From NCBI GenBank assembly GCA_016180435.1, contig JACPBG010000002.1:144682-208681 (forward strand): DNA of 64,000 nucleotides, read 5' to 3'. Below are positions 1,222 through 57,155 of the stretch, in pieces (positions within the stretch are counted from its first letter, which is position 1; every line of letters begins with the position of its first letter). The position numbers and the translations under genes were made by a program. The DNA is from Candidatus Sungiibacteriota bacterium. Its GTDB lineage: Bacteria > Patescibacteriota > Minisyncoccia > Sungbacterales > HO2-52-23. The notes beneath the pieces were generated by a model. The model made no database searches. It had not been told where the DNA came from and was given only the letters and a program-made list of their open reading frames with translations.

Positions 1222-1290
1222 ATATTCTTGGTCTTCGTTAATCTTTCGGTTAGTTTTTCGAATAAATTAATAAAATTGGATATAGATATC

Positions 1291-3750
1291 ATGCAAATTT
1301 TATTTTCCCATCCTTCTTTTATCATGTTCGGTGTTGCACTCACTGTATTTGCGGCCTTATTTTTGTTGCGCTCCCTGCTTTTGAAAAAGGGACTTATCTC
1401 CCGTTCGTTAAACCTTGAACTCTTGCTGGTGCGTTTTCCGCCGCCGCCATCTATCGGTCCGTCCCAACAGGAGCCATCGCTCCAGCAAGTTCGCGAAAAG
1501 ATCGCTTTGATGGAGCAGTTATATGTTCAGCTTTCATATATAAAGGATTCGTGGTTTCACTCATTATTATACGGCGAGCCGTCAATTGCCATGGAACTTA
1601 CCATTCCGCATATCGGGGAGGAAATTACTTTTTACGTGGCTGTGCCGCGCCGATTTGGACAGGCCGTGGAGAAAGTGATCCATGGAACTTTTCCCGAAGC
1701 GCATGTGGAGCCGTCACGCGACTACAATATTTTTCATCCGGATGGGGCAACGGCTGCGTCCCGTATGATGTTGCGCCCGAATATTTTTTATCCCATTCGT
1801 ACTTACCAAAAATTGGAAGGGGATCCCCTGCGCGCGATTACCAATGTTTTTACCAAACTTGCGCGGGAGGGGGAGGGCGCGGCTTTGCAGGTGGTGGCGC
1901 GTCCGGCGCATTATAAATGGCGGCGGCGCCTGCGTGAGCGGGCGCATAAAATGCAGGAAGGAGAAAGATACGAGGAAGATAAATTAATGCGCGTTTTGAA
2001 AACAGTGATAGATACGGCCAGCGAGGCGGCCAAAACCGAGCAGGATAAGCCCAAAGAGCAAAAGCGCCTTACTCCGCTTGAAGAGGAAATGTTAAAATCT
2101 CTTGAATCCAAGGCCGGTAAAGCCCTTTTTGAAGCGAATATACGCCTGGTGGCATCTGCTCCGACCGAGCGCCGGGCGCGGGAAATTTTGGATGCCCTGG
2201 AAGCCGCTTTTGGACAATTTGAAGACCCGAATCTTGATGCGTTTCGTAGTGAGCGGCCATCCGGATCGGCATTTAAAAATTTAGTATTTAATTTCTCGTT
2301 CCGCAATTTTGACGATAAAAAATATTCGGTTTTAAGCGTAGAAGAATTAACTTCAATTTTTCATTTCCCGAACGTGGCGTTGGAAACGCCCAAAGTAAAA
2401 TCTTTGAAAGCGCGCGAGGCGCCTCCGCCGCCCAATCTCTCTCCGGACGGGCTGCTTTTGGGTTACAATCTTTTCCGCGGAACTTCATCGGATGTGCGTC
2501 TCCTGGAAGATGATCGCCGAAGGCATTTATACGTTATCGGACAGACCGGCACCGGAAAAACAGCGTTTTTAAAAAATCTGGTGGTGCAGGACATTGAAGA
2601 CGGCCACGGGGTATGTTTTATCGATCCGCATGGCGATACGGTCGAGGAACTGCTCGGCATGATCCCGCGCCATCGCCTGCAGGATGTGATTTATTTTAAT
2701 CCCGGAGACGTGGCGCGTCCTTTGGGATTGAATATGCTTGAATACGACTCCAACTATCCGGAACAAAAAACATTTATCGTCAATGAGCTTTTCGGAATTT
2801 TCCAGAAATTATACGGCGCGGTTCCCGAGGCGCTGGGTCCTATGTTTGAGCAATATTTCCGGAATGCCACCATGCTGGTCATGGACGACCCGGCGTCCGG
2901 AAATACTCTGCTTGAAATTTCCCGTGTTATGTCGGATAAAACATTTCGCGATCTTAAAATTTCGCGCGCCAAAAATATCATAGTTAAAAATTTTTGGACC
3001 CAGATCGCGGAAAAAGCCGGCGGAGAAGGGGAACTTCGCAATATGGTCCCTTATATCACCTCTAAATTTGACGTATTTTTGGCAAACGAGATTATGCGGC
3101 CGATCGTGGCGCAGGAAAAATCATCATTCAACTTTCGTGAAGTTATGGATAGCGGGAAAATTTTATTAGTTAATCTTTCCAAGGGGCGTTTGGGCGATAT
3201 TAATTCTGCCTTGATCGGGCTTATTATAGTAGGAAAAATAACCATGGCTGCGCTTTCGCGCACCGATGTGGCGGATCCGGAGCGGCGCCGGGATTTTTAT
3301 CTATATATAGACGAATTTCAAAACGTTACCACGGATTCGATTGCCACTATTTTTGCCGAGGCCCGCAAATATCGGCTGAATCTGATTGTGGCGCATCAGT
3401 ATATCAAGCAGTTGACCGATAACATTCGGAATGCGGTTTTCGGAAATGTGGGATCGCAGGTGGCGTTTCGCATTGGTTCGGATGACGGAGAATTCATGGA
3501 AAAACAATTTATTCCGGTTTTTAAAGCCGCGGACTTGCTGAATGTGGATAATTATAACTGTTATGTTAAACTTCTTTTAAGGGGACAAACCGCGCCCCCG
3601 TTCAGTTTAAAGACCTATCCTCCGAAAAAAGGCAATGCGGAGATAGCTGCGGTGGTCAAGGAAATTTCCCGCACTAAATTCGGCCGTCCCCGCGAAGAAA
3701 TTGAGAAAGAAATTATGGAGAAACATGAGAGTCAGCTAATCAACGAATAA
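1291..3750 (+). CDS. TraG/TraD/VirD4-family (type IV coupling protein-like) P-loop ATPase with an N-terminal TM segment
   Basis: ATG at 1291 lies in frame within track ORF 1228..3750. Hydrophobic N-terminus FIMFGVALTVFAALFLL. Walker A YVIGQTGTGKTAF. Walker B-like LYIDEFQNV followed by LNLIVAHQYIKQL, matching the DEF...QS/HQ..QL pattern of TraG/VirD4 family proteins. Confidence 0.6.
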   Translation: MQILFSHPSFIMFGVALTVFAALFLLRSLLLKKGLISRSLNLELLLVRFPPPPSIGPSQQEPSLQQVREKIALMEQLYVQLSYIKDSWFHSLLYGEPSIAMELTIPHIGEEITFYVAVPRRFGQAVEKVIHGTFPEAHVEPSRDYNIFHPDGATAASRMMLRPNIFYPIRTYQKLEGDPLRAITNVFTKLAREGEGAALQVVARPAHYKWRRRLRERAHKMQEGERYEEDKLMRVLKTVIDTASEAAKTEQDKPKEQKRLTPLEEEMLKSLESKAGKALFEANIRLVASAPTERRAREILDALEAAFGQFEDPNLDAFRSERPSGSAFKNLVFNFSFRNFDDKKYSVLSVEELTSIFHFPNVALETPKVKSLKAREAPPPPNLSPDGLLLGYNLFRGTSSDVRLLEDDRRRHLYVIGQTGTGKTAFLKNLVVQDIEDGHGVCFIDPHGDTVEELLGMIPRHRLQDVIYFNPGDVARPLGLNMLEYDSNYPEQKTFIVNELFGIFQKLYGAVPEALGPMFEQYFRNATMLVMDDPASGNTLLEISRVMSDKTFRDLKISRAKNIIVKNFWTQIAEKAGGEGELRNMVPYITSKFDVFLANEIMRPIVAQEKSSFNFREVMDSGKILLVNLSKGRLGDINSALIGLIIVGKITMAALSRTDVADPERRRDFYLYIDEFQNVTTDSIATIFAEARKYRLNLIVAHQYIKQLTDNIRNAVFGNVGSQVAFRIGSDDGEFMEKQFIPVFKAADLLNVDNYNCYVKLLLRGQTAPPFSLKTYPPKKGNAEIAAVVKEISRTKFGRPREEIEKEIMEKHESQLINE

Positions 3751-3840
3751 CGAATCCAATACGAATTTACGAATAAACGAATGGTTCGATACTGCTCACC
3801 ATAAATTCGTATATTCGTAAGCCATTCGTAATTCGTAGAT
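3751..3840. repeat. ACGAAT/ATTCGT-rich imperfect palindrome (family copy 1), beginning CAACGAATAACGAAT across the stop codon of the upstream gene
   Basis: Left arm acgaataacgaatccaatacgaatttacgaataaacgaatgg approximately pairs with right arm ccataaattcgtatattcgtaagccattcgtaattcgt. The same CAACGAATAACGAAT motif recurs at 26744 and 41981. The 3' end ATTCGTAGATA...ATTATG resembles the 3' end of the nrdD-splitting copy. Confidence 0.6.
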
Positions 3841-3849
3841 AAAGTTATT

Positions 3850-4452
3850 ATGATTTCTAAACTTGATTATAGTATCGCCGCCCTGATAGGATTTTTAGCC
3901 GGAGTTTTTTTGATCCCCACGCTTATTAACGTGGGATTGCGCACTCAATGGATTTTAATGATCATTCCGCTTGTGATTCCGCCGGTGTTTGCTTTGGGTG
4001 TGTGGATTTCCGGCATACTTGCGCGCCGACTCGCTTTTATGGCGCAGTTCGGAAAATTTGTGGCCGTCGGGTTTTTGAATACTGCGATTGATTTTGGGAT
4101 TTTGAATTTATTGAGTATGGCCACTGGCATTACTTCCGGGTTTGTGATCGGCGGCGTGAATGCCCCGGGTTTTGCAGTTGCCGTCATAAATAGTTATTTC
4201 TGGAATCAGTTGTGGGTTTTCAAAGGCAAGAATGCTGGAGAGGGAATGTTCCATGATTTTCCAAAGTTTTTGACTGTTATGCTGATCGGACTTGCTATAA
4301 ATAGCGGCATAATTTTTGCGCTGACAACATATATCATGCCTCCCTTCGGATTGGGGGAAACTTTGTGGCTTAATGTTTCTAAGGCGTTTGCCACCATATT
4401 TGTCCTGGTTTGGAATTTTCTCGGCCTCAAGTTTTTGGTTTTCAGACCGTAA
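3850..4452 (+). CDS. GtrA-like polytopic membrane protein
   Basis: Several TM helices. The segment FGKFVAVGFLNTAIDFGILNLL matches the GtrA-family signature KFxxVGxxxTxIDxxxLxxL. Confidence 0.5.
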   Translation: MISKLDYSIAALIGFLAGVFLIPTLINVGLRTQWILMIIPLVIPPVFALGVWISGILARRLAFMAQFGKFVAVGFLNTAIDFGILNLLSMATGITSGFVIGGVNAPGFAVAVINSYFWNQLWVFKGKNAGEGMFHDFPKFLTVMLIGLAINSGIIFALTTYIMPPFGLGETLWLNVSKAFATIFVLVWNFLGLKFLVFRP

Positions 4453-4603: not shown

Positions 4604-5308
4604 ATGGTCAGGTTGATATCGGTTTTGGTACTGTTCTCAACAAGTTTTATCTTCACAGATTCATACGCCCTTCAAGATCGCTCGTTGAAAGCCGGAGTTT
4701 ATTATATGTGGCGGGATGATCCTTTTGCCGTTAAAGCCGGAGAAGAGAATGTTTTGCGCGCAAAATTACGCCAAGAAGTTTCCAGCGCCTTTTCGCGTTT
4801 GGGATCCGGCATTGACATATCTTTTGTAAAAGTTCTGCCCGAAATTCAATTTGATTATCTGGTTTTAGGAAAGGGGGAGATCCGTGGAATATCTCCACGT
4901 TCATTTTTCCTGGCCGCGCGTTCGAATGAAGATGTTTTGCTTGATTTAGAAAGCGTGGATTTCTTATTTGTTTTTACCTGGGATTTTATCATACAGCGCT
5001 GGATGGATTCGGGTTTGGTCGAAATTGATTCACAAGAGAGTATTATAGGCGCGGTGTATGTTTCCTTGGGCGGTATCACGGAACATGGCGGCAAAATTTC
5101 TCTGATCCGTTTTGATGAAGACGCCATGCTTTTGCAAAACCGCATTATGCACGAATCGGGACACCTTTTGGGGCTTGCTGATAAAGATAAGGTGCTTTGC
5201 AAATTCAGTTTGACGATCATGTGTTGGCCGGTAAAGCCGCAAATGGAGATAGGGGATGAGATCAAGATCCGTTTGAATGAATATATAGCAGAAAAACCGC
5301 TTCCTTAG
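4604..5308 (+). CDS. Secreted HExxH-motif protein, putative zinc metallopeptidase
   Basis: ATG at 4604 (MVRLISVLVLFSTSFIF, signal-like) lies in frame within track ORF 4562..5308. IMHESGHLLGLADKD resembles a HExxHxxGxxD metzincin-like site. No other homology recognised. Confidence 0.4.
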   Translation: MVRLISVLVLFSTSFIFTDSYALQDRSLKAGVYYMWRDDPFAVKAGEENVLRAKLRQEVSSAFSRLGSGIDISFVKVLPEIQFDYLVLGKGEIRGISPRSFFLAARSNEDVLLDLESVDFLFVFTWDFIIQRWMDSGLVEIDSQESIIGAVYVSLGGITEHGGKISLIRFDEDAMLLQNRIMHESGHLLGLADKDKVLCKFSLTIMCWPVKPQMEIGDEIKIRLNEYIAEKPLP

Positions 5309-6587: not shown

Positions 6588-6597
6588 TTTATAACAC

Positions 6598-6655
6598 AAA
6601 AATGTCATACTTACAAACTTGAGAATGTTGGTATGTTAAGGGTGTGCTGAATAGT
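6598..6655 (+). pseudogene. hsdS-derived fragment: a ~50-nt copy of the inter-TRD region of hsdS lying just downstream of dnaX
   Basis: acacaaaaatgtcatacttacaaacttgagaatgttggtatgtt matches hsdS nt ~17105-17155, with a 22-nt exact core atacttacaaacttgagaatgt. It would encode HTYKLENVGML versus HTYKLENVRMF in hsdS. Confidence 0.45.
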
Positions 6656-7150: not shown

Positions 7151-7223
7151 TTTCGTTTAAAAAATGGCCTTATACAATAAGTTGCCCTTGATTTTGAAAA
7201 GTGCTATTATGGCATTATTAAAC

Positions 7224-7261
7224 GTTTCACTTTTTCTACAATATGGTAGAAAAAGTGAAAC
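7224..7261. promoter_or_regulatory. Perfect 16-bp inverted repeat (GTTTCACTTTTTCTAC-aatatg-GTAGAAAAAGTGAAAC) upstream of abiEi; candidate operator
   Basis: A perfect palindrome about 130 nt upstream of the AbiEi start. It is preceded by TTGCCC-17nt-TATTAT promoter-like hexamers at ~7186-7214. Confidence 0.35.
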
Positions 7262-7393
7262 GGGTAATTTTTACCCAGCTAGAGGTTCGGAATTGGACGT
7301 TGATTTAAAATAAGATATAAAGCGAAAACGGCTTACGCCCTGCATTATAAGTTAAAGAAAGACGACTTTAAACCTCTGACTGGGCTTACTAAT

Positions 7394-13012: not shown

Positions 13013-13037
13013 ATATTTATAGTGAGCTTATCGAACT

Positions 13038-14516
13038 ATGTCCAACATCCAATCAGTCATCAAAAACATCCAAGATATCATGCGTAAAGACGCGGGCGTG
13101 GATGGCGACGCCCAGCGGCTCTCCCAGCTTGTCTGGATGCTTTTCCTGAAAATTTTTGATGACCAGGAGCGCGAGCGCGAGCTTATCAATCCCAAATATC
13201 GCTCACCCTTGCCCGAGGATCTCCGCTGGCGCAACTGGGCAGGCGACCCGGAAGGAATGACCGGCGACGGGCTTCTGGAATTCGTCAACAACAAGCTTTT
13301 CAAACGGCTGAAGGATTTGTCTTTTGACGAGAGCGAAGACCCTCGGGCTTTTATCGTTCGCGAGGTGTTTGCCGACAGCTACAACTATATGAAGTCCGGC
13401 ACCCTTATCCGGCAGGTCATTAACAAAATAAACGAAATTGATTTTAATAAAGCCGACGACCGTCACGCCTTCAACGACCTCTACGAACATCTGCTCAAAG
13501 AGCTCCAAAGCGCGGGCAACGCAGGGGAGTATTACACGCCCCGGCCGCTCACGCGTTTTGTGGTAGAGATGGTTTCCCCTAAACTTGGCGAAAAGGTGCT
13601 GGATCCGGCCTGCGGCACCGGCGGATTTTTGATTGACACTCTGGAATACATCCGTAAGCAGGAAATAAAAACCGCGGCGGATGAAAAGAAACTCCAAAGC
13701 CAAATACAAGGAGTAGAACTCAAGTCGCTACCATATTTATTAGCTACGACAAATATGATTTTGCACGGCGTGGACACGCCAAAGCATTTGCGCCATGGCG
13801 ACATGCTTTCCCAACCATTGCGGGAATATGGGCCGAAAGATCGCGTTGATGTGATTGTGGCCAATCCGCCATTTGGAGCCGATGTCAAAGATGGCATAGA
13901 GAAAAACTTTCCGACCGAATTCCGCACCCGCGAAACTGCCGACCTCTTTTTGGTACTTTTTATTCATCTTTTAAAACCAAACGGCCGCGCCGGCATCGTG
14001 CTTCCCGATGGCTCGCTTTTCGGCGAGGGCGTTAAAACCGCCATCAAGAAAAAACTCCTTGAAGAGTGCAATGTGCATACCATTGTCCGCCTGCCGCAAG
14101 GCGTGTTTAATCCGTACGCCGGAGTAAACACCAACCTAATTTTCTTCACCAAAGGCGAACCCACCAAAGAAATCTGGTACTACCAGCTTCCGCTCCCCGA
14201 AGGCGTCAAACAATACACCAAAAACCGCTGCATCACAGACGCAGATTTTGATCAAGTTAGAGAGTGGTGGAATAAAAGAAAGGATAATGCGCTTGCCCCG
14301 TTAGAGGCCGCGAGGGCTCGCAGCGTGTCTTCGCCTCTAATGGGGTGGAAAGTATCAATCAAACAAATCCAAGAACGAAACTACAATCTGGACTTCAAAA
14401 ACCCGAACGGCAATGCAAAACTCGTCCACAAAGACCCGAAAGAAGTTTTGGAGAGCATCGCCAAAACCGAATTCCACATTGCCAAAATTTTGGAGGAGAT
14501 AAAGAAAGAGATATGA
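13038..14516 (+). CDS. hsdM: Type I R-M N6-adenine DNA methyltransferase subunit
   Basis: SAM motif I VLDPACGTGGFL and motif IV VIVANPPFG. Contains an in-frame 50-nt palindromic repeat near its 3' end. Confidence 0.9.
   Translation: MSNIQSVIKNIQDIMRKDAGVDGDAQRLSQLVWMLFLKIFDDQERERELINPKYRSPLPEDLRWRNWAGDPEGMTGDGLLEFVNNKLFKRLKDLSFDESEDPRAFIVREVFADSYNYMKSGTLIRQVINKINEIDFNKADDRHAFNDLYEHLLKELQSAGNAGEYYTPRPLTRFVVEMVSPKLGEKVLDPACGTGGFLIDTLEYIRKQEIKTAADEKKLQSQIQGVELKSLPYLLATTNMILHGVDTPKHLRHGDMLSQPLREYGPKDRVDVIVANPPFGADVKDGIEKNFPTEFRTRETADLFLVLFIHLLKPNGRAGIVLPDGSLFGEGVKTAIKKKLLEECNVHTIVRLPQGVFNPYAGVNTNLIFFTKGEPTKEIWYYQLPLPEGVKQYTKNRCITDADFDQVREWWNKRKDNALAPLEAARARSVSSPLMGWKVSIKQIQERNYNLDFKNPNGNAKLVHKDPKEVLESIAKTEFHIAKILEEIKKEI
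14296..14345. repeat. Small palindromic element (CCCCGTTAGAGGC ... GCCTCTAATGGGG) lying inside the hsdM reading frame
   Basis: 13-nt inverted termini with one mismatch enclose a GC-rich core cgcgagggctcgcagcgtgtcttc. The termini match the CCCCGTTAGAG/CTCTAACGGGG family at 24074 and 49561. The hsdM frame stays open through it (peptide ALAPLEAARARSVSSPLMGW). Confidence 0.5.
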
Positions 14517-16527: not shown

Positions 16528-17796
16528 ATGTCTACCTACCCAACAAAAAAACTCGGAGAAGTATTGGATTACGAACAACCCGGGAAGTATATCGTAAATT
16601 CCAAGAATTACAGTAACGACTATAAAACGCCGGTTTTAACAGCTGGTAAAACTTTTATATTGGGAAATACAGATGAAAAAGAAAACGTATTCCCATCTGA
16701 AAAGTTACCGGTAATAATTTTTGATGATTTTACTACTACTATAAAATTTGTTGATTTTCCCTTTAAGGTTAAGTCTTCGGCAATGAAGATTTTGCATGCT
16801 AAAAAAGGTGTAGCAGATATCAAATATTTATTTTATTTAATGCAAACCATAGAACTCAATCATGCAACGCATAAACGATATTGGATATCAGAATTTTCTC
16901 AATTAGAAATCCCTCTCCCGCCGCTTTCAGAGCAGAAGAAAATCGTGACGAGGTTGGAAGGGTTGCTGAAGAAAATTAAGGAGGCCAAGCGCTTGCGCGC
17001 CGAAGCGCAAGAAGCCGCCCAAAACCTCCTCCCCGCCGAACTCCACCGCATCTTCACTCAACAGGATTCTTATTCTCTAATTCGCGCGAATAAGCGAATA
17101 GTTGGAAAACTTACCACAACACACAAACAACATACTTACAAACTTGAGAATGTAAGGATGTTTAATAAGTCCGCCTCCGTTAAAACTTCGGCGGATAAAT
17201 GGGAAGAAAAAGAGTTGGGAGAAATTTGCGAATTGAATCCAAAAAAATCAGAAATAAAAGATAAGGCAGACGATTTTCTTGTTTCTTTTGTTCCAATGTC
17301 TGCTGTTGATGAATACTTGCAAGCGATCGTATTATTGCAGGAACGAAGTCTGGGTGAAGTGAGAAAGGGCTATACTTATTTTAAAAATGGCGATGTTTTG
17401 TTTGCAAAAATTACTCCGTGCATGGAAAATGGGAAAGTCGCTATCGCAAGGAATTTAAAAAACAGCATTGGTTTTGGCACTACGGAATTTCATGTTTTTC
17501 GGGCAAAAAAGAAAGTTTTGCCGGAATGGATTCATTATATTATCGGTCAGCCGTCTTTCCGGGAAATTGCCAAAACCAGAATGACCGGAAGTGCGGGACA
17601 AAAGCGAGTGCCAGTGCAATTTCTAGAAAAATTTAAAATCCCGCTCCCGCCCGTTGCGGAGCAGAAAAAAATCGTGTCGCGGCTGGACTCGCTTTCCGAA
17701 AAAATCAAAAACCTGCGAGAGTATCAGAAAGACACCAAGTCCAACATGCAAAACTTGGAGCGATCTATACTGTATAAAGCATTTGAGAGCAAATAG
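16528..17796 (+). CDS. hsdS: Type I R-M specificity subunit
   Basis: Two TRDs, each followed by the conserved coiled region (LPPLSEQKKIVTRLEGLLKKIKEAKRL and LPPVAEQKKIVSRLDSLSEKIKNLRE). Confidence 0.85.
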   Translation: MSTYPTKKLGEVLDYEQPGKYIVNSKNYSNDYKTPVLTAGKTFILGNTDEKENVFPSEKLPVIIFDDFTTTIKFVDFPFKVKSSAMKILHAKKGVADIKYLFYLMQTIELNHATHKRYWISEFSQLEIPLPPLSEQKKIVTRLEGLLKKIKEAKRLRAEAQEAAQNLLPAELHRIFTQQDSYSLIRANKRIVGKLTTTHKQHTYKLENVRMFNKSASVKTSADKWEEKELGEICELNPKKSEIKDKADDFLVSFVPMSAVDEYLQAIVLLQERSLGEVRKGYTYFKNGDVLFAKITPCMENGKVAIARNLKNSIGFGTTEFHVFRAKKKVLPEWIHYIIGQPSFREIAKTRMTGSAGQKRVPVQFLEKFKIPLPPVAEQKKIVSRLDSLSEKIKNLREYQKDTKSNMQNLERSILYKAFESK

Positions 17797-17876: not shown

Positions 17877-18210
17877 TAGCCCCGACCGAGACGGGTTAGG
17901 GGAGTAGCAAAAGGAGAGTCAAAAAGGCCCTAAGATACCTTATAGGCGGTCGTTCCAGACCGAAGTGGCCAGCAGCTTTTGACTATGCGAACTCAAAATT
18001 TTCAAATGAGAGGGTTCTCTCAACCACAGACCGTCAAAATGCCAAAAAGTTATTCCATGAGCTTGTCGAAGGGCAACTTTTGGGCTTATATATGTATGCC
18101 TTCGACAAGCTCAGGCAATAAAATTATAGTTTTCGGACGGTCTGTACGCCTCAACAAAATTTTCCACGACTTTTTGGGTTCAAAGCAAATCGCTTGCGAG
18201 CGCAAAACGT
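17877..18210 (+). repeat. Noncoding element R2, homologous to R1; contains a perfect 14-bp hairpin and an outer 10-bp inverted repeat
   Basis: Shared end motifs with R1 (see R1). GAGCTTGTCGAAGG (18058-18071) pairs with CCTTCGACAAGCTC (18099-18112). ACAGACCGTC (~18028) pairs with GACGGTCTGT (~18135). The hsdS terminator hairpin AAACGGAACAC...GTGTTCCGTTT lies just upstream. Confidence 0.45.
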
Positions 18211-24666: not shown

Positions 24667-26738
24667 TGATTCCCTTTATACCATTTAGAACAATCAAAAA
24701 ACGGGACGGAAGAATCGTTCCTTTTGACCCGTATAAAATTTCAAACGCCATTGAAAAAGCCGGAATTGCTACCGGTGAATTCGGGCGCGCCACTGCGGAA
24801 AAACTTATGCAAAGGGTGCTCTGGCAGGTGGAACATATGCCCGCAAATTATCTTCCGACCGTGGAGGAGGTTCAGGATATAGTCGAGGATGTCCTGTTAA
24901 GCTCTTTTTATAAAAAAACCGCCAAGTCGTATATTTTGTATCGCGATCAGCACGCCAAACTTCGCGATATGGTATCAACCGCCGAGGTGGATCTTATGGA
25001 ACGATACCTCGGTTTGGCTGATTGGCAGGTTCAGGAAAACAGCAATATGACCTATTCCCTGCAGGGCCTTAATAATTATGTTTCCTCCGAAATAAGCAAA
25101 GTGTACTGGTTGAATAAAATTTATCCCCCGGAAGTTGCGCGGACCCATCAGAGAGGGGACTTTCATATTCATGATTTAAACGTACTTTCGGTATATTGCG
25201 TGGGATGGGATCTGCATGATTTGCTGGCCCAGGGGTTTCGCGGGACCCGCGGGAAAATAGAAAGTAAGCCAGCTAAACATTTTCGTAGCGCTTTGGGGCA
25301 GGTTACCAATTTTTTCTATACTCTGCAGGGAGAAGCGGCCGGGGCGCAGGCGTTTTCAAACTTTGATACGCTACTGGCGCCGTTTATACGCTACGATAAA
25401 TTATCTTACGCCGAGGTGCGCCAAGCCATGCAGGAATTTGTTTTTAATATTAACGTGCCGACCCGGGTCGGATTCCAGACGCCTTTTACCAATGTAACCA
25501 TTGATCTGCAGGTGCCGAAAATGTATGCGGGCATGCCGGTCATAATCGGAGGAGCATATCAGAAAGAATTATACGGCGAGTTTCAAGGCGAGATGGATAT
25601 GTTTAACCGCGCGTTTCTTGAAATAATGATGGAAGGTGACGCGCGCGGCCGGATTTTTACGTTTCCCATTCCGACTTATAACATCACCAAGGGATTTGAC
25701 TGGAAAAATGAAAATATTGATATGTTGTGGCAGGTGGCTGCTAAATACGGGATTCCTTATTTTGCCAATTTTGTGAATTCAGATATGTCGCCGGATGACG
25801 CGCGTTCCATGTGCTGCCGCTTGCGCCTGGATATGCGCATGCTTGAGAAGCGCGGCGGGGGTCTTTTTGGAGCGCACCCGCTTACCGGATCCATTGGCGT
25901 GGTTACCATAAATATGCCGCGGCTGGGATATTTATCTCAAAACAAAGAAGAGTTTATGGAAAGATTAGAGCGCCTGATGGAACTTGGCAAAGAAAGTTTG
26001 GAGATTAAACGTAAAGCCCTGGATAGATTTACTGAAGGCAATCTTTATCCCTATTCCAAATTTTATCTGCGGGACATCAAAGAGCGTTTTGGCAATTACT
26101 GGGAAAATCATTTCTCTACCATTGGCCTGGTGGGCATGAATGAGGCATGTTTGAATTTATTGGGAAAGACAATTGCGGATCCGGAAGGCCATGAATTTGC
26201 CGCCGCGGTTCTTGATTTTATGAGAGAAAAGCTTTTATCTTTTCAGCAAGAAACCGGGCATAACTACAATTTGGAAGCCACACCGGCCGAAGGAACCGCT
26301 TATCGCCTCGCGCGCCTGGATAAAGAAACGCATCCGGAAATAATTTGCGCTAATGAAACTAAATGGAGAAGCGGAGCCAAGCCCTTTTATACTAATTCCA
26401 CTAATTTACCGGTGAATTATACCGATGATATTTTTGAGGCGTTTGATTTGCAGGATTCATTGCAGATAAAATATACCGGCGGGACGGTATTGCACGGATT
26501 TTTAGGTGAGCGCATGCCCTCGGGCGAGGCGGTTAAGCATTTGGTTAGAAAAGTGGTGGAAAATTACCGGCTTCCGTATTTTACCATTACCCCTACTTTC
26601 AGCATCTGTCCGGTACACGGGTATCTTGCGGGCGAGTACGAATATTGTCCGCGCTGTGATGAAGAAATGGGGTATAATTCAGAATTACAAAATGCATCGC
26701 CAAATCAAAGTCAGCCATTATTTTCAAAGGTCGGATAA
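24666..26738 (+). CDS. nrdD: Anaerobic ribonucleoside-triphosphate reductase, catalytic body (ATP cone to Zn ribbon), truncated before the glycyl-radical domain by an insertion
   Basis: ATP cone (IKKRDGRIVPFDPYKISNAIEKA); class III RNR core; Zn site CPVHGY...CPRC. The frame then runs into inserted sequence (EEMGYNSELQNASPNQSQPLFSKVG) and stops. The RVVGYY glycyl-radical motif is found only in the downstream mini-ORF. Confidence 0.9.
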   Translation: MIPFIPFRTIKKRDGRIVPFDPYKISNAIEKAGIATGEFGRATAEKLMQRVLWQVEHMPANYLPTVEEVQDIVEDVLLSSFYKKTAKSYILYRDQHAKLRDMVSTAEVDLMERYLGLADWQVQENSNMTYSLQGLNNYVSSEISKVYWLNKIYPPEVARTHQRGDFHIHDLNVLSVYCVGWDLHDLLAQGFRGTRGKIESKPAKHFRSALGQVTNFFYTLQGEAAGAQAFSNFDTLLAPFIRYDKLSYAEVRQAMQEFVFNINVPTRVGFQTPFTNVTIDLQVPKMYAGMPVIIGGAYQKELYGEFQGEMDMFNRAFLEIMMEGDARGRIFTFPIPTYNITKGFDWKNENIDMLWQVAAKYGIPYFANFVNSDMSPDDARSMCCRLRLDMRMLEKRGGGLFGAHPLTGSIGVVTINMPRLGYLSQNKEEFMERLERLMELGKESLEIKRKALDRFTEGNLYPYSKFYLRDIKERFGNYWENHFSTIGLVGMNEACLNLLGKTIADPEGHEFAAAVLDFMREKLLSFQQETGHNYNLEATPAEGTAYRLARLDKETHPEIICANETKWRSGAKPFYTNSTNLPVNYTDDIFEAFDLQDSLQIKYTGGTVLHGFLGERMPSGEAVKHLVRKVVENYRLPYFTITPTFSICPVHGYLAGEYEYCPRCDEEMGYNSELQNASPNQSQPLFSKVG

Positions 26739-26871
26739 AAAATCAACGAATAACGAATCATACGCGAATATGCGAATTTATAGTGAGCCTGTCGAACTAT
26801 TCGTTAATTCGCTTCATATTCGCTATTCGTTGATATCGCAGAATGAAAAATAAAACTCGTCAGCGCTGTGA
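26651..26871. mobile_element. 212-bp insertion in nrdD flanked by a 9-bp direct repeat GCGCTGTGA (26651-26659 and 26863-26871); it carries a stop, the ACGAAT palindrome and an outward ATG
   Basis: Removing the insert and one repeat copy restores ...YCPRCEVYSRVVGYYRPVEQWNEGKQAEFVERKEYD, a contiguous NrdD C-terminus. The interior contains the CAACGAATAACGAAT...ATTCGTTGATAT palindrome (26739-26842) and TTTATAGTGAGCCTGTCGAACTAT, which also occurs at 13017-13040. Confidence 0.7.
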
Positions 26872-27010
26872 GGTTTATTCGCGGGTGGTGGGATATTACC
26901 GGCCGGTGGAACAGTGGAACGAGGGCAAGCAGGCGGAATTTGTGGAGCGCAAGGAATATGATGTTCGGTGTGCTGCCGAAAAAAATGAGGTAGGCGCCCA
27001 AACCGTATGA
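26843..27010 (+). CDS. Stand-alone NrdD glycyl-radical domain mini-ORF (55 aa), created by the insertion and translationally coupled to nrdG
   Basis: MKNKTRQ (element-derived) followed by RCEVYSRVVGYYRPVEQWNEGKQAEFVERKEYDVRC, with the glycyl-radical motif RVVGY. Stop TGA overlaps the nrdG ATG (ATGA). Below the ORF-track size cut-off. Confidence 0.7.
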   Translation: MKNKTRQRCEVYSRVVGYYRPVEQWNEGKQAEFVERKEYDVRCAAEKNEVGAQTV

Positions 27011-38810: not shown

Positions 38811-38811
38811 T

Positions 38812-39042: not shown

Positions 39043-41970
39043 ATGAAGACCTTAATAACAGTAAATCGAAAATTATTGCTGGCCATCTTATTTTTAGTGA
39101 GCGTAGCATTTACCGAAGCCGGGGCGACTGCCAACGACTCTTCCATAACTCTTAAAAAACCCCCGGGCGCGGAACGATTTATTTTGACCATTAACGATCC
39201 TGATGGAATTCAGGAGTTTTCGCTTTCTCCGGCCGCGCAATTCCGTTACGGCGGAATGTTGAGCGGCTGCAATAAGTCATTTTCGATTAAGGATGTATCC
39301 TTCAATGACCCGGCTGATTTTACGCCCAAGATGCCTGCCTATGTTATTGATTGTCAGAACAATACTCTGGAGCTTGAAATTTTTACTCCGGTTAAAGGGA
39401 TAGCTAAAAGTGTTGCGGTAAAAAAAGAAGCTCCGGCGCCGTCCCCGACGCCTGTAGAGAATTTAGAACTTAGAACCGAGAACTTAGCAAAACTTCCCGA
39501 AAAAAAGGGGCCTTTGTTGGCCGAAGACATTCGGTATCCGGTGCCCGAATTGGGAAATTGCCAAAGCGAGGCCGAATGCCGTTCGTATTGCGATAATGTT
39601 AATCACGCTAAGGAGTGCCTGGCATTTGCCAAGAAATATAATCTGATTTCAGCAGGAGAAGCCCAGGAAGCGGCTGATAAATTCCTTAATGTTAAAAATG
39701 GCCCCGGCGGCTGCAATTCCTGGTCTTCTTGCGAAAATTATTGCAATTCAATTGATCATCTGGATGCATGTATTACTTTTGCCGAGGAGACCGGTTATTA
39801 TTCCGGCGATAAATTGGCCGAGGCCCGAAAATTTCAAGGCCTGATAAAATCCGGGGAGAAATTTCCCGGAGGATGCCGCGATCGGAACTCCTGTGAAATT
39901 TATTGCGGCGACCCCAATCATATGGAAGAATGTTTGGATTTTGCCGAAAAAAGCGGCTTTATGCCCAAAGAGGAAATAGCGGAGGCCAGAAAATTCATGG
40001 CTTTAATGCGTAAAGGCGAGAGCCCGGGCGGATGCACCTCCAAAGAACAATGTGAAAAATATTGTTTTGAAGAAGATCATATGAATGAGTGTATTGATTT
40101 CGGTCTGAAAGCGGGAGTTATGACCGAGGAGGAGGCAGTAATGGCCCGAAAAGTTGGAGGAAAAGGTCCGGGCGGATGCCGCAGTAAAACGCAATGCGAT
40201 GCGTATTGCGAAGAACATTCCGAGGAGTGCTTTAATTTTGCCAAGGAGCATGGATTGATGAGTGAAAAAGACCTGGAACGAATGAGCAAGGGAATGGAAC
40301 AGTTCCGCGCTAATCTTGAAAAAATGCCTCCGGAAGCAGTTCAGTGTCTTGAGGATGCTATCGGCGAAGAAAATTTTGAGAAAATCAAAAATGGACAGCC
40401 GATTTTTGATAGAAGCATGGAAGGAAAAATGAAATCCTGTTTTGGACGGATGAGCGCCGATTTCAGTAAAAAGTTAGAGAAGCTCCCGCCCCAAGCCACG
40501 CAATGCATTAAAGATGCGGTGGGGGAAGAAGGACTGCAAAAATTACAAAGCGGAGAATTCGGCGAAGATCTTAATTTTGAATCATTGGAAGGATGTTTTA
40601 AGGCATTGCAGCAATCGTTGGGCGGAGGAGGTAATTTTAGCAAAGGCGGATTTGAGGGCCCCGGCGGATGCAAAAGCATGGAAGAATGCGTAGAGTATTG
40701 TACTGCCCATCATGAGGAGTGTGCGGGTTTTAGTCCTCCGGGTGGAGGCGGCGGAGGATTTCAGCGGGGTGATGGAGGATTTCAGGGCGGTGGACCGGGA
40801 GGATGCAGGAGCGAGGAAGAATGCCGGTCTTATTGCGAGGAACATCCGGATGAATGTGGCGGCGGGGGCGGTATGGGCGGTGGCGGCAGTAATGGTGTAA
40901 ATACGGGCGGTGGATTTAACGGACCCGGCGGCTGCGCTTCTATAGAGGGATGCATCGTATATTGCCGATCGCATACGGAAGATCGCGAATGCCGGGCTTA
41001 TACAGGCGGCGGAGAAGGGGGCGCGGGTTTTTCCGGTCCGGGCGGCTGTGCATCCATAGAGGATTGCGTGAGATATTGCCAAGCGCATTTTCAAGATCAA
41101 GAGTGCCAAGCCTACATAGGAGGCGGTGGCGGCGGGGGAGGAAACATTGGCGGCAATTCGCCAAGTTGCGCTCCGGCGCCTTTGGGCTTAGTCAGTTGGT
41201 GGAAAGGGGAATCAAGCGCGCAAGACAGTGCTGACGGAAATAGCGGAGCTCTTTCCGGAGGAGCTGGTTTTGCTGATGACGGAAAAGTCGGGAAGGCGTT
41301 TAAATTTAATAAAGGCAGCGTCAATATCGGAAATCCCGCTAATCTGAATTTCGGGACCGGGCCATTTTCTTTGGAGGCCTGGTTTCGCTGGGACGGCGGA
41401 GAAGGCGTAAATAATATCATCCGAAAATCAAACTATCCTTCCAGCGGCCCCGGATCGGGATATTGGTTCAGGGTAGGCAATGGAACCCTGGAATTTTCGA
41501 TTGGAGAAACTACCCAATCCGAAGGCCAGACCATTATTACCGCGCCCGTGGCTTCCGGAGTTTGGCATTATGCCGTTGGCACGAAAGATGATTCCGGCGG
41601 CGTTAAGTTATATGTGGATGGCGAGTCCCGGGGAACTATCCTGCGGTCTGCTCCCGGTACGCAATCAACAAGTGATGATCAGTTTACACTCGGATCATGG
41701 CGGGCGAGCTCCGAATTTTTTTCCGGCCTGATCGATGAGGTTTCCGTATATAACCGAGCGCTTAACGCGTCAGAAGTCCAGGCCATTTTCAATGCGGGTA
41801 ATGCGGGTAAATGCTCTGTTCAGTCAAGTCCCGCGCCAATTCCTCCGCCCGGCGGCCAAATCCCTCCGGAATATTGTTCATATTTTACAGCCGTACCAAG
41901 TTGTTCCTATGTTGGTCCGGCGGGATCGCAAGATTATAATTACTGCAAGCAGTGTTTTCCGGATAAATAA
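39043..41970 (+). CDS. Secreted Cys-rich repeat protein (8x ~45-aa C4H modules), Gly-rich spacers, C-terminal concanavalin/LamG-like domain
   Basis: Signal peptide MKTLITVNRKLLLAILFLVSVAFTEA. Repeats GPGGCNSWSSCENYCNSIDHLDACITFAEETGY, PGGCRDRNSCEIYCGDPNHMEECLDFAEKSGF and others. GGGG runs. C-terminal LIDEVSVYNRALNASEVQAIF fits Laminin_G_3. Confidence 0.7.
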   Translation: MKTLITVNRKLLLAILFLVSVAFTEAGATANDSSITLKKPPGAERFILTINDPDGIQEFSLSPAAQFRYGGMLSGCNKSFSIKDVSFNDPADFTPKMPAYVIDCQNNTLELEIFTPVKGIAKSVAVKKEAPAPSPTPVENLELRTENLAKLPEKKGPLLAEDIRYPVPELGNCQSEAECRSYCDNVNHAKECLAFAKKYNLISAGEAQEAADKFLNVKNGPGGCNSWSSCENYCNSIDHLDACITFAEETGYYSGDKLAEARKFQGLIKSGEKFPGGCRDRNSCEIYCGDPNHMEECLDFAEKSGFMPKEEIAEARKFMALMRKGESPGGCTSKEQCEKYCFEEDHMNECIDFGLKAGVMTEEEAVMARKVGGKGPGGCRSKTQCDAYCEEHSEECFNFAKEHGLMSEKDLERMSKGMEQFRANLEKMPPEAVQCLEDAIGEENFEKIKNGQPIFDRSMEGKMKSCFGRMSADFSKKLEKLPPQATQCIKDAVGEEGLQKLQSGEFGEDLNFESLEGCFKALQQSLGGGGNFSKGGFEGPGGCKSMEECVEYCTAHHEECAGFSPPGGGGGGFQRGDGGFQGGGPGGCRSEEECRSYCEEHPDECGGGGGMGGGGSNGVNTGGGFNGPGGCASIEGCIVYCRSHTEDRECRAYTGGGEGGAGFSGPGGCASIEDCVRYCQAHFQDQECQAYIGGGGGGGGNIGGNSPSCAPAPLGLVSWWKGESSAQDSADGNSGALSGGAGFADDGKVGKAFKFNKGSVNIGNPANLNFGTGPFSLEAWFRWDGGEGVNNIIRKSNYPSSGPGSGYWFRVGNGTLEFSIGETTQSEGQTIITAPVASGVWHYAVGTKDDSGGVKLYVDGESRGTILRSAPGTQSTSDDQFTLGSWRASSEFFSGLIDEVSVYNRALNASEVQAIFNAGNAGKCSVQSSPAPIPPPGGQIPPEYCSYFTAVPSCSYVGPAGSQDYNYCKQCFPDK

Positions 41971-42015
41971 ATCGTCAACGAATAACGAATTTTTTTACGA
42001 ATATAACGAATTTGT
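41971..42015. repeat. Partial ACGAAT-repeat element (copy 3; CGGATAAATAAATCGTCAACGAATAACGAAT...) supplying the stop region of the upstream gene
   Basis: Shares GGATAAA(W)AAATC(G)TCAACGAATAACGAAT with the nrdD-splitting copy (26730-26760). Only the left arm is present. Confidence 0.4.
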
Positions 42016-57039: not shown

Positions 57040-57150
57040 CCAATCCGATGCAAATTTAATGCCAATTTGGCGAATTGCGAATATTCGCATAATTAGCAAT
57101 TTGTAGATTAGCATTTCATTTGTAGATTTGCATCATTGCGCGTTAGCGAA
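57040..57150. repeat. GCGAAT/ATTCGC-rich palindromic spacer related to the ACGAAT family
   Basis: ttggcgaattgcgaatattcgcataattagc...gcgcgttagcgaatgaat resembles the nrdD-element segment acgcgaatatgcgaattt. Confidence 0.35.
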
Positions 57151-57155
57151 TGAAT

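What the first reader, a model, noticed from the sequence alone, without database searches (positions are those of the whole stretch)
3735..3850. ACGAAT-palindrome element family: copies at gene ends provide stop codons and abut downstream start codons
The motif TCAACGAATAACGAAT occurs three times (3751, 26744, 41981). Each sits at or across the stop codon of a large gene: QLINE-stop, SKVG-stop, FPDK-stop via GGATAAA(W)AA. Copies 1 and 2 have a matching right arm, and their 3' ends (ATTCGTWGATA......ATG) run straight into the ATG of the next ORF (GtrA-like at 3850; the NrdD mini-ORF at 26843). Related GCGAAT palindromes lie at 57040-57150. The central 24-mer TTTATAGTGAGCYTRTCGAACTAT of the nrdD copy recurs immediately upstream of the hsdM ATG (13017-13040). 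This looks like a mobile, or formerly mobile, intergenic punctuation element.
Basis: seen in the sequence. Interest (0 to 1): 0.55.

Follow-up and report, generated by a model that had tools for sequence, protein, structure and literature searches.

The report
Widespread hairpin repeat linked to nuclease cassettes
The ACGAAT palindromes are real copies of a small hairpin-forming repeat that sits between genes in many tiny "candidate phyla" bacteria and Bacteroidota; its full-length relatives carry a small nuclease gene, much like the intervening sequences known from ribosomal RNA genes.

Summary
TCAACGAATAACGAAT occurs exactly three times (3740, 26743, 41975; 0.1 expected). There are two complete palindromic "doublets" (3739-3840, 26742-26834) and one solo arm (41974-42011), each starting within 4 nt after a stop codon or containing it.

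The host is a Candidatus Sungbacteria (Patescibacteria) MAG. A strict arm pattern hit at least 120 loci in about 84 genomes, against roughly 9 expected by my estimate. The consensus arm is ATCA-ACGAAT-A-ACGAAT-N4-5-T-ACGAAT-WT-ACGAAT.

- **Position:** doublets fill gaps between co-directional genes (33 tandem, 4 convergent, 0 divergent).
- **Turnover:** close relatives carry a different hairpin element, a plain hairpin or nothing in the two orthologous gaps I could compare.
- **Amplification:** spacers are more alike within a genome than between genomes.
- **Cargo:** wherever the arms lie more than 250 nt apart they enclose a GxxExxY (PD-(D/E)XK) nuclease gene. Distant GxxExxY genes and four-helix-bundle genes have analogous arms built from other short units, as the Coxiella 23S rRNA intervening sequence does.

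Best reading: an ORF-less derivative of an IVS-like selfish cassette. I found no target duplication, no compensatory pairing and no published description. The central 24-mer belongs to a separate mini-hairpin family. The nrdD split predates the element.

The parts
3739..3840 (.). Copy 1, a complete doublet: left arm of 5 ACGAAT units, a centre, and a right arm of 4 ATTCGT units. It lies in inverted orientation relative to copy 2.
   Evidence: arm profile E 6e-11 and 1e-8. RNA fold -30.9 kcal/mol, z -5.2.
3748..3750 (+). TAA stop of the VirD4/TraG-like ORF 1228-3750, lying inside the left arm (..ATC AAC GAA TAA).
   Evidence: A relative that is 93% identical ends ..KHESSL*, whereas the window reads ..KHESQL|INE*. 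Homology breaks exactly at |ATCAACGAA.
3783..3803 (-). Mini-hairpin nested in the centre of copy 1 (ATGG-TGAGCAGTATCGAA-CCAT on the - strand).
3850..4452 (+). GtrA-family gene whose ATG follows the right end of copy 1 by 9 nt.
   Evidence: PF04138, E 2.5e-19.
26742..26834 (.). Copy 2, a complete doublet (4 + 4 units), in the gap between the large and small nrdD ORFs.
   Evidence: E 1e-9 and 6e-8. Fold -31.3 kcal/mol, z -3.9. Identical on six independent Logan contigs. Absent from the same gap in L131, L127, L129 and L130.
26777..26800 (+). Mini-hairpin nested in the centre of copy 2 (TTTATAG-TGAGCCTGTCGAA-CTAT).
26732..26744 (+). Leader CGGATAAAAAATC shared with copy 3. It contains the TAA stop of nrdD-large, and relatives read AAAGGTCGAAGTA.. 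here instead.
41960..41974 (+). Leader CGGATAAATAAATCG of copy 3. It contains the TAA stop of ORF 39043-41970.
41974..42011 (+). Copy 3, a solo left arm of 4 ACGAAT units with no right arm. An unrelated GC-rich hairpin follows at about 42026-42058.
   Evidence: E 1.9e-7.
13016..13039 (+). Stand-alone mini-hairpin (TTTATAG-TGAGCTTATCGAA-CTATG). Its 3' stem overlaps the hsdM start codon at 13038.
57040..57150 (.). Analogous doublet made of different heptamers (TGCNAAT / ATTNGCA), starting at the TGA stop of ORF 54851-57037.
   Evidence: -43.9 kcal/mol, z -4.35. Only a weak match to the ACGAAT arm profile (E 0.4).

Best explanation
The window's ACGAAT palindromes are ORF-less copies (two 'doublets' and one solo arm) of a small selfish cassette family. 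The family is common in Patescibacteria, which includes this window's host (Candidatus Sungbacteria), and in Bacteroidota.

**Shown**
- The unit is a pair of inverted arms of about 35 nt. Each arm is four ACGAAT hexamers at fixed spacing, ending in ATCA/TGAT.
- Full-length members (about 455-500 bp) carry one gene between the arms. It encodes a roughly 131-aa GxxExxY protein of the PD-(D/E)XK nuclease superfamily, with the catalytic D..ExK residues invariant.
- Copies sit in the few nucleotides between a stop codon and the next start codon of co-directional genes, sometimes replacing the last codons and the stop.
- Occupancy of two orthologous gaps differs between close relatives.
- Copies within one genome share spacer variants.
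- Distant GxxExxY genes and four-helix-bundle genes (the protein family I recall as the S23p of 23S rRNA intervening sequences) are bracketed by analogous inverted arrays made of other short tandem units.

**Inferred**
- The cassette spreads by a DNA-level process that reads the hexamers. The nuclease, or an unidentified partner, may cut at or near the arms, and repair then copies the element in.
- Short copies arise by loss of the ORF.
- The element is tolerated because in the transcript it folds into a roughly 30-bp interrupted stem. That keeps the flanking stop and start codons adjacent.
- Like an rRNA intervening sequence, the stem may be cut by RNase III, which would separate the two cistrons.
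For: **Family size and shared termini**
- The genome scan hit at least 120 loci, against roughly 9 expected by my own estimate from pattern length and collection size.
- A at -1 in 46 of 50 doublets and T at +1 in 49 of 50.

**Cargo**
- All four arm pairs more than 250 nt apart enclose a GxxExxY ORF. It matches TIGR04256 at E 1e-32 and PF13366 at E 5e-31.
- Two further arm-to-GxxExxY junctions are L014 and L037.
- Three GxxExxY genes fetched by protein similarity (59-72% identical to the first cargo, so probably the same clade) have the same arms, at different places in operons: L252, L262 and L264.
- L144 has an ACGAAC variant of the arms.
- D75, E85 and K87 are invariant. The predicted fold has generic PD-(D/E)XK neighbours.

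**The wider class**
- GxxExxY genes at 32-36% identity in Bacteroides, Bernardetia and Treponema plasmids have inverted flanks. In Bacteroides and Bernardetia these are tandem CACAGAG-type units; in Treponema a single inverted pair (CACGGATTCG).
- Two TIGR02436 genes are flanked by inverted (CATCAAA)n and (TTTTCAA)n arrays.
- The Coxiella IVS has a 28-bp terminal inverted-repeat stem, an S23p ORF, tandem GACAGAT heptamers and RNase III excision (PMC4990558).

**Turnover and amplification**
- nrdD gap: the window against L131, L127, L129 and L130.
- VirD4-like to GtrA gap: the window against L266.
- Spacer identity is 0.58 within genomes and 0.43 between them; 0 of 1000 permutations reached the observed value.

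**Gene context**
- 33 tandem, 4 convergent and 0 divergent. The stop codon lies 1-6 nt before the element or inside it, and the next start 5-16 nt after it.
Against: - There is no target-site duplication of 2 nt or more.
- No GxxExxY gene lies in the 64-kb window, and I could not scan the rest of the host genome.
- Copies 1 and 2 are only about 80% alike in their arms, so nothing shows recent activity in this genome.
- Nothing shows that the GxxExxY protein binds or cuts the arms. It may be a passenger.
- No movement event was observed. The two filled-versus-other-element comparisons lie in fast-evolving gaps and do not give clean empty sites.
- One Fusobacteria GxxExxY gene has direct rather than inverted flanking repeats, and the Persicobacter case showed none.
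- Hexamers conserved next to free spacers would also fit a host protein-binding function.
Confidence: 0.6

Rival explanations
1. A host-selected intercistronic RNA hairpin. The doublet is kept because its stem acts in the polycistronic mRNA as an RNase III processing site, a 3' stabiliser of the upstream cistron, or a device that holds stop and start codons together for coupled translation. On this reading, mobility is incidental or absent.
For: - The hairpins are stable (-31 kcal/mol, z -3.9 to -5.2).
- They sit almost exclusively between co-directional genes and never in divergent regions.
- Distances to stop and start codons are tight and regular.
- In both orthologous gaps, several relatives carry some other hairpin at the same place. 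That could mean a hairpin is needed there.
- The IVS precedent shows RNase III cutting such stems.
Against: - There is no compensatory change between arms. (A,G) and (G,A) hexamer pairs are common and (G,G) is rare. Spacer complementarity is 0.45 against 0.446 when shuffled.
- G.U is not favoured over A.C on the sense strand (15 against 11).
- Solo arms, which cannot fold, are common.
- Copies occur in either orientation.
- L129 and L130 have no hairpin in the nrdD gap.
- There is no T-tract, and no terminator-like site was called.
- It does not explain why the same arms enclose a nuclease gene.
Confidence: 0.2
2. Arrays of binding sites for a DNA-binding protein (a regulator, a nucleoid protein, or a partition or defence factor). 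The hexamers are the functional units and the palindromic arrangement reflects a multimeric binder.
For: - Hexamers and their spacing are conserved across phyla, while the N4-5 spacer varies freely and the arms evolve independently.
- Solo arms often lie 0-30 nt upstream of start codons.
- A 660-nt pure (AACGAAT)n array lies upstream of a gene in L033.
Against: - The sites lie between co-transcribed genes and never in divergent promoter regions.
- Promoter-like matches are at background level.
- The neighbouring genes are unrelated housekeeping genes.
- The same sites would have to be read in Patescibacteria and in Bacteroidota.
- Presence or absence differs between close relatives.
- No candidate binder other than the cargo nuclease was found. 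If that nuclease is the binder, this rival merges with the main explanation.
Confidence: 0.1
3. A classical MITE mobilised in trans by a DDE-type transposase, with the arms acting as its terminal inverted repeats. On this reading, the GxxExxY gene is captured cargo.
For: - Terminal inverted repeats with sub-terminal repeated motifs, small size, many copies and intragenomic subfamilies.
Against: - There is no target-site duplication.
- No arm pair up to 4 kb apart encloses anything but a GxxExxY ORF or a short non-coding centre.
- The same arm-ORF-arm plan recurs with unrelated arm sequences around GxxExxY and four-helix-bundle genes.
Confidence: 0.07
4. Chance similarity of AT-rich low-complexity sequence, or an assembly artefact.
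For: - The hexamer ACGAAT alone is only mildly enriched in the window: 28 observed against 19.5 expected.
Against: - The 16-mer gives 5 matches against 0.1 expected.
- The same 35-nt architecture occurs in at least 120 loci.
- Copy 2 is identical on six independent assemblies.
- Profile E-values reach 6e-11.
Confidence: 0.01

Closest known systems
Intervening sequences (IVS) of 23S rRNA genes (Coxiella, Leptospira, Salmonella), with their S23p / four-helix-bundle ORF
   Same: - Size is about 430-490 nt, with terminal inverted repeats that form a long stem.
- One small ORF sits in the loop, and tandem heptamers lie next to the ORF start (PMC4990558).
- ORF-less forms exist.
- TIGR02436 genes in my loci have the same plan.
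- From memory, NCBIfam notes that the GxxExxY and four-helix-bundle families share distribution and an occasional IVS location.
   Different: - The elements here lie between protein-coding genes, not in rRNA helices 25 or 45.
- The cargo is a PD-(D/E)XK nuclease rather than a four-helix-bundle protein.
- The arms are the specific ACGAAT array.
- RNase III excision is untested here.
Bacterial MITEs (for example Correia elements of Neisseria, RPEs of Rickettsia, Nezha of cyanobacteria)
   Same: - Size under 150 nt, terminal inverted repeats and hairpin-forming transcripts.
- Many dispersed copies and intragenomic subfamilies.
- Insertion at gene ends, which can supply stop codons.
   Different: - There is no target-site duplication.
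- No transposase-bearing parent was found. The only parent-like form carries a roughly 131-aa nuclease.
- The arms are arrays of one hexamer that is conserved across phyla.
REP / REPIN elements with their RAYT transposases
   Same: - Short extragenic palindromes occur as singlets and as inverted doublets.
- They lie at the 3' ends of genes within operons.
- A single-copy enzyme gene is itself flanked by the repeats.
   Different: - A single arm here is not itself a palindrome and has no GTAG head.
- The flanked enzyme is a PD-(D/E)XK protein, not an IS200-like Y1 (RAYT) protein.
- The family crosses phyla, whereas REPs are species-specific.
Cyanobacterial STRR heptamer repeats and small dispersed repeats (Mazel 1990; Elhai 2008; recalled from memory, not read here)
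   Same: - Tandem heptamers in intergenic DNA, and very small hairpin elements (21-27 nt) nested within them. The mini-hairpin nested in the ACGAAT doublets looks similar.
   Different: - The taxa and the sequences are different.
- I did not verify any relationship.
Free-standing homing endonuclease genes (for example seg and mob of T-even phages)
   Same: - A small nuclease gene wedged between conserved co-directional genes, variably present among relatives.
   Different: - Those genes have no terminal inverted arrays.
- Homing by the GxxExxY protein is not shown.

Membership tests
MITE | Terminal inverted repeats | tested here: met
   ATCAACGAAT..(about 35 nt)/..ATTCGTTGAT in 50 parsed doublets. 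Window copies 1 and 2 have arms that are 78-81% complementary.
MITE | Target-site duplication flanking the element | tested here: not met
   Flanking k-mers of 2-6 nt match no more often than shuffled pairs, at four boundary definitions. A palindromic AT or TA duplication cannot be told apart from an extension of the inverted repeat.
MITE | Small, non-coding, many dispersed copies | tested here: met
   Doublets are 71-154 nt. At least 120 loci were found, with up to 19 arms sampled from one genome.
MITE | An autonomous parent with the same ends that encodes a transposase | tested here: not met
   The only ORF found between arms is the GxxExxY PD-(D/E)XK protein. No transposase was found between arms up to 4 kb apart in the loci held.
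REP/REPIN-RAYT | Each unit is itself a short imperfect palindrome with a conserved GTAG head | tested here: not met
   A single arm is a direct array of ACGAAT units, not a palindrome, and its head is ATCA.
REP/REPIN-RAYT | An associated RAYT (IS200-like Y1) gene flanked by the repeats | not tested
   I did not search the loci for Y1 transposases. The flanked gene seen is GxxExxY.
rRNA intervening sequence (IVS) | Located in a helix of 23S (or 16S) rRNA | tested here: not met
   The window copies lie between protein genes. In L031 the arm lies about 1.5 kb outside the 23S gene. No rRNA gene is in the window.
rRNA intervening sequence (IVS) | Terminal inverted repeats forming a stem, with or without a small ORF (S23p family) in the loop | tested here: met
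   The architecture is shared. The ORF family here is GxxExxY, and TIGR02436 cassettes with other arms are in L068 and L190.
rRNA intervening sequence (IVS) | Excised from the transcript by RNase III | not testable with these tools
Intrinsic (Rho-independent) terminator | GC-rich stem followed by a T-tract | tested here: not met
   No terminator-like site was called at any of the three copies. The stems are AT-rich and no T-run follows.
Rfam RNA families | Match to a curated covariance model | tested here: not met
   The only gathering-score match in the window is one tRNA. With permissive thresholds on copy 2, only sub-threshold miRNA-hairpin noise appeared.

The most novel reading that the evidence does not exclude
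The ACGAAT arms with their GxxExxY gene, and the parallel cassettes built from other short units around GxxExxY or four-helix-bundle genes, may form one undescribed class of very small mobile elements. On this reading, a PD-(D/E)XK nuclease (or an unknown partner) and inverted arrays of short tandem units replace the usual transposase and terminal repeats. Elements would insert precisely between stop and start codons without a target duplication. The rRNA intervening sequences would be the special case that landed in rRNA. The ORF-less doublets in this window would then be the 'MITEs' of that class.
Probability: 0.35. Interest if true: 0.75.

Novelty: new variant of a known kind. Interest (0 to 1): 0.6.

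Why it matters
- **Two orphan protein families.** GxxExxY and four-helix-bundle (S23p) proteins are abundant and of unknown function. How rRNA intervening sequences arise and move has been open since about 1990 (PMC4990558). A sequence-defined family with hundreds of copies, a conserved 35-nt arm and a recurrent nuclease cargo gives a concrete substrate-and-enzyme pair to test.
- **Genome analysis.** In Patescibacteria, whose genomes are tiny and gene-dense, these elements occupy intercistronic gaps and rewrite gene ends (..INE*). Many GxxExxY genes sit on very short contigs, which is what repeats that break assemblies would produce. The elements could also cut polycistronic mRNAs. All of this matters for annotation, binning and expression studies.
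- **If it is only a decaying selfish repeat,** it is still a useful strain-level marker and a caution against reading its hairpins as terminators.

Tried and rejected
- **The element splits nrdD.** Pfam put the large ORF at NRDD positions 1-529 and the 55-aa ORF at 531-562, which suggested this. I rejected it. Seventeen of the 120 best NrdD hits end at the same point. Relatives have a separate small ORF after gaps of 10-93 nt without the element.
- **Cyanobacterial origin or HIP1.** Only 2 GCGATCGC sites are present. The host is Candidatus Sungbacteria.
- **Known RNA family.** None matched.
- **Terminator or sigma-70 promoter.** Neither was found above background.
- **Phage origin.** The arm pattern gave 0 hits in viral contigs.
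- **Location inside rRNA.** The one 23S gene near an arm (L031) does not contain it.
- **Literature.** Arm and core sequence strings, GxxExxY/PF13366, and CPR with MITE or palindromic repeats gave no description of this element. Only open-access papers and bioRxiv were searched.
- **Solved structure of a close relative.** There is none by sequence.
- **Clean empty-site boundaries and a target duplication.** The nrdD gap is too diverged for this. The L266 gap gives a sharp left boundary only.
- **Extending the host contig beyond the window.** The last look-up returned a 2.6-kb contig, so there is no genome-wide count for the host itself.
- **Chance hits in the metagenome core scan.** I estimated that dozens could be expected. 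The 116 of 124 Watson-Crick covariation shows the hits are real.


Full report

Yes. The 16-mer TCAACGAATAACGAAT occurs exactly at 3740, 26743 and 41975. Reverse-complement versions with 1-2 mismatches lie at 3824-3839 and 26818-26833. That makes 5 matches against 0.10 expected by shuffling.

Reading the sequence gives two complete palindromic "doublets":
- Copy 1, 3739-3840, has five ACGAAT units, a centre of about 20 nt, and four ATTCGT units.
- Copy 2, 26742-26834, has four units on each side.
- Copy 3, 41974-42011, is a solo left arm, followed by an unrelated GC-rich hairpin.

Copies 1 and 2 fold at -31 kcal/mol, with z-scores of -5.2 and -3.9.

- ORF 1228-3750 ends ..QLINE, with its TAA at 3748-3750 inside the arm.
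- ORF 24666-26738 ends ..SKVG, with its TAA 4 nt before TCAACG.
- ORF 39043-41970 ends ..FPDK, also with its TAA 4 nt before TCAACG.

The next ATGs (3850 and 26843) follow the right ends by 9 and 8 nt. A profile built from 188 arms of other genomes finds just these five arms in the window.

The two copies therefore lie in opposite orientations.

**2. Whose genome is this?**

Exact protein look-ups name the source as a Candidatus Sungbacteria (Patescibacteria/CPR) MAG, on a contig of 209,783 nt.

**3. A large family with fixed architecture**

I scanned one genome per species with CAACGAATARCGAATN{5,8}CGAAT. By my own estimate from pattern length and collection size, about 9 chance hits were expected. 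By record title these come from about 50 Patescibacteria genomes, 25 Bacteroidota, 4 labelled Gammaproteobacteria and 5 unclassified.

The consensus arm is ATCA-ACGAAT-A-ACGAAT-N4-5-T-ACGAAT-WT-ACGAAT, and the right arm is its reverse complement. Parsed doublets are 71-154 nt long, with a mode of 82-84. The termini are sharp: A at -1 in 46 of 50 doublets and T at +1 in 49 of 50. Solo arms are common.

That test fails clearly.

**4. Where the copies sit**

Of the 37 doublets with callable neighbours on both sides, 33 lie between co-directional genes, 4 between convergent genes and none between divergent genes.
- The upstream stop is 1-6 nt before ATCAACGAAT, or it is the TAA/TAG inside the arm. 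In 8 of 25 cases the ORF ends ..ATC AAC GAA TAA, that is INE*, exactly as in window copy 1.
- The downstream start lies 5-16 nt after ..TTGAT.

Part of it follows simply from inserting into the very short gaps of these compact genomes. The absence of divergent contexts is more than that: if about one gap in eight were divergent, which is my assumption, roughly four or five would be expected.

**5. Evidence for gain, loss and amplification**

*The nrdD gap.* A relative whose NrdD is 91% identical (L131) has a 26-nt gap with a small GC hairpin. One at 90% (L127) has a different palindrome. More distant relatives have gaps of 36 and 10 nt with nothing evident. Homology to the window ends at AAAGGTCG. 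The window's GGATAAAAAA plus element is therefore lineage-specific. Copies 2 and 3 share the leader CGGATAAA(W)AAATC, which holds their stop codons.

*The VirD4-like to GtrA gap.* A relative at 93% identity (L266) ends ..KHESSL*, where the window reads ..KHESQL|INE*. Similarity stops exactly at |ATCAACGAA. In the same gap L266 carries a mini-hairpin plus another kind of palindrome.

*Spacers.* Among 200 arms, the variable spacer is more alike within a genome (0.58) than between genomes (0.43), and 0 of 1000 label permutations reached the observed value. One Saccharibacteria MAG uses TACGT/TACTT almost throughout.

These points fit copying within genomes and turnover between relatives. No transposition event was seen directly, and no target-site duplication of 2 nt or more exists.

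**6. The cargo**

Every arm pair more than 250 nt apart (L030, L078, L088, L093; 455-489 nt) encloses one ORF of about 131 aa. Its ATG abuts the inner end of one arm and its stop overlaps the inner end of the other.

The ORF is a GxxExxY protein: TIGR04256 at E 1e-32 and Pfam PDDEXK_3 at E 5e-31. Two more arm-to-GxxExxY junctions are cut by contig ends.

I then fetched three GxxExxY genes by protein similarity (59-72% identical to the first cargo, so probably from the same CPR clade). All three have the same arms, again wedged between co-directional genes but at different places:
- before PrgI in one type IV secretion operon;
- between TraC-like and VirB4-like genes in another;
- between a tRNA synthetase gene and ndk.

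D75, E85 and K87 are invariant. The predicted fold (pLDDT 90) has generic PD-(D/E)XK neighbours: Cas4, lambda-exonuclease-like proteins, tRNA-splicing endonucleases and Hjc. A 2012 survey of the superfamily lists PF13366 with unknown function (PMC3424549). None of these genes lies in the window.

**7. A wider class**

- GxxExxY genes only 32-36% identical, on Bacteroides, Bernardetia and Treponema plasmids, have inverted flanks. In the first two these are tandem CACAGAG-type units; Treponema has a single inverted pair. Bacteroides matches 19 of 20 positions. One Fusobacteria case has direct repeats and one Persicobacter case showed none.
- L144 has an ACGAAC variant of the arms.
- Two four-helix-bundle genes (TIGR02436) in my loci are flanked by inverted (CATCAAA)n and (TTTTCAA)n arrays.
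- The Coxiella 23S rRNA intervening sequence is a 428-nt selfish element with a 28-bp terminal inverted-repeat stem, an S23p ORF described as a four-helix bundle, tandem GACAGAT heptamers before the ORF, and excision by RNase III. Its origin and mobility are described as unresolved (PMC4990558).

The window's 57040-57150 hairpin, made of TGCNAAT heptamers directly after a TGA stop, fits this class as another ORF-less member.

**8. What constrains the arms?**

Not pairing, as far as I can measure.
- When a hexamer's first base differs in one arm, the partner usually does not follow. (A,G) and (G,A) are common and (G,G) is rare.
- Spacer complementarity is 0.45 against 0.446 for shuffled partners.
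- Among non-Watson-Crick positions oriented by the flanking genes, G.U (15) is not favoured over A.C (11).

The arms still pair well, with 427 of 480 hexamer positions Watson-Crick. That follows from both arms matching one consensus. Something therefore reads the hexamers themselves, most simply a protein. Terminator-like and sigma-70-like sites are absent or at background level. Rfam has nothing.

**9. The central 24-mer is another element**

A metagenome scan with TTATRGTGAGCNNNNTCGAAC also hit its 120-locus limit. The typical form is TTATRG-TGAGCGAAGTCGAAC-YAT.
- R and Y covary: 77 G/C and 39 A/T pairs, only 8 of 124 otherwise. This is a real stem, and it rules out chance hits.
- The hairpins mostly stand alone.
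- They often touch a start codon in either orientation (20 followed by ATG, 17 preceded by CAT), as at hsdM in the window.
- Only one hit (L245) lies inside ACGAAT arms.

The window holds nine such stem-GAGCTTGTCGAR-stem hairpins, against 2.3 expected. Two Saccharibacteria doublets (L043, L064) carry the same core. The centre of a doublet seems to be a favoured site for this second element.

**10. nrdD**

The large ORF covers Pfam NRDD positions 1-529. The 55-aa ORF covers 531-562 and holds the glycyl-radical motif. The same split is found in relatives down to 70% identity, with or without any element in the gap. Unsplit homologues read CPxC-xxx-CEVYSRVVGY. The element sits in a pre-existing gap and did not make it.

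**11. How it most likely works**

*Shown:* the architecture, the distribution, the placement, the cargo, the turnover, and the absence of a target duplication and of compensatory change.

*Inferred:*
- The family spreads at the DNA level through recognition of the hexamer arrays, with the nuclease as the obvious but unproven agent.
- The short doublets are ORF-less derivatives.
- They persist in intercistronic gaps because the transcript folds back. The stop and start codons, each within a few nucleotides of the base of the stem, then stay next to each other.
- As with rRNA intervening sequences, RNase III may cut the stem and separate the cistrons.

I put this at 0.6. The rivals are a host-selected RNA hairpin (0.2), a protein-binding array with a host function (0.1) and a classical transposase-driven MITE (0.07).

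**12. Novelty**

I found no description of this arm family, of its link to GxxExxY genes, or of the mini-hairpin in the searchable literature. That library covers open-access papers and bioRxiv only. The kind is known: small palindromic intergenic repeats and IVS-like elements. The variant appears to be new: inverted hexamer arrays conserved across phyla, a PD-(D/E)XK cargo, no target duplication, and stop/start-precise placement.

**13. Limits**

- I could not scan the host genome beyond the window.
- ORF calls in the loci are my own simple longest-ORF calls.
- The equivalence of S23p with TIGR02436, and the NCBIfam remark linking GxxExxY to intervening sequences, rest on my memory.

Noticed in passing
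window 24666-26738 + 26843-27010 (+ nrdG 27007-27699); L127, L129, L130, L131: The anaerobic ribonucleotide reductase NrdD is encoded in two pieces: a 690-aa body ending just after CPRC, and a 55-aa ORF with the glycyl-radical motif RVVGYY. The same split is conserved in relatives at 70-93% identity (17 of the 120 best hits), with gaps of 10-104 nt. This looks like a functional split enzyme in a CPR clade, not a pseudogene.
   Followed up: partly
window 3785(-), 6660, 7130(-), 13024, 18059, 18101(-), 26785, 54773, 57811; metagenome loci L132-L251: There is a mini-hairpin family with a variable 4-6 bp stem around a conserved loop, GAGCTTGTCGAR (in metagenomes TGAGCGAAGTCGAA). The window holds 9 against 2.3 expected. 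Stem covariation is Watson-Crick in 116 of 124 cases. The hairpins often touch a start codon in either orientation. No Rfam match and no paper was found.
   Followed up: partly
reverse complement of the mini-hairpin, e.g. window 13016-13039: The reverse complement reads ..CGCTCACTATAA, which resembles the T7-type promoter core CTCACTATAG (recalled from memory). This is probably coincidence and I did not test it.
   Followed up: no
window 57040-57150: A hairpin (-43.9 kcal/mol) made of inverted TGCNAAT/ATTNGCA heptamers starts at the TGA stop of the DsbD-like ORF 54851-57037. It has the same architecture as the ACGAAT doublets but uses other units.
   Followed up: partly
window ~4510, 21284, 24165, 27721, 33750, 57263; reverse strand ~21160, 49648, 38815: The motif GTTCTAACGGGGT occurs six or more times, mostly in short gaps just before gene starts. 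It may be a promoter or a translation signal of this organism.
   Followed up: no
window 18026-18145; L266 ~4990-5110: Another palindromic element type has termini ACAGACYGTC.. and arms of about 47 nt that each contain a mini-hairpin motif. A related one fills the VirD4-like to GtrA gap in the 93%-identical relative, where the window has the ACGAAT doublet.
   Followed up: partly
window 62933-62982 and 7217-7268: A perfect 25+25 nt palindrome lies directly after the copA stop, and a 26+26 nt palindrome (88% complementary) lies at 7217-7268. The Logan contig carrying copA ends just there, as expected if such repeats break assemblies.
   Followed up: no
window 38809-38913 vs 57153-57258; 6593-6637 vs 17118-17162: Two further dispersed repeat pairs are present. 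One is 75-105 nt at 74-80% identity and contains GCGATCGC. The other is 45 nt at 84% identity.
   Followed up: no
L033 2071-2734 (Bacteroidota MAG JAZDJJ01): A 660-nt pure tandem array of AACGAAT/AGCGAAT/AACGAAC heptamers ends 12 nt before a gene start. The arm unit can expand as a microsatellite.
   Followed up: no
L054 7529-7626 (Bacteroidia MAG): A chimeric doublet has an ACGAAT-type left arm facing a right side made of CTCTGTG-type units. The same kind of unit flanks the GxxExxY genes of Bacteroides and Bernardetia.
   Followed up: no
L059, L066, L100, L093, L020, L009, L084 and others: Solo arms lie with their inner end 0-13 nt from the start codon of unrelated housekeeping genes, with no Shine-Dalgarno sequence in between. 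By eye from their N-terminal sequences these look like triose-phosphate isomerase, RNase III, EF-G and a XerC-like recombinase, but I did not annotate them.
   Followed up: partly
protein hits P0121-P0240: Most GxxExxY genes found in public assemblies sit on contigs of only 0.6-3 kb. One exact protein (P0142) is indexed in 153 blocks of the collection, and the ten places shown share one type IV secretion context.
   Followed up: partly
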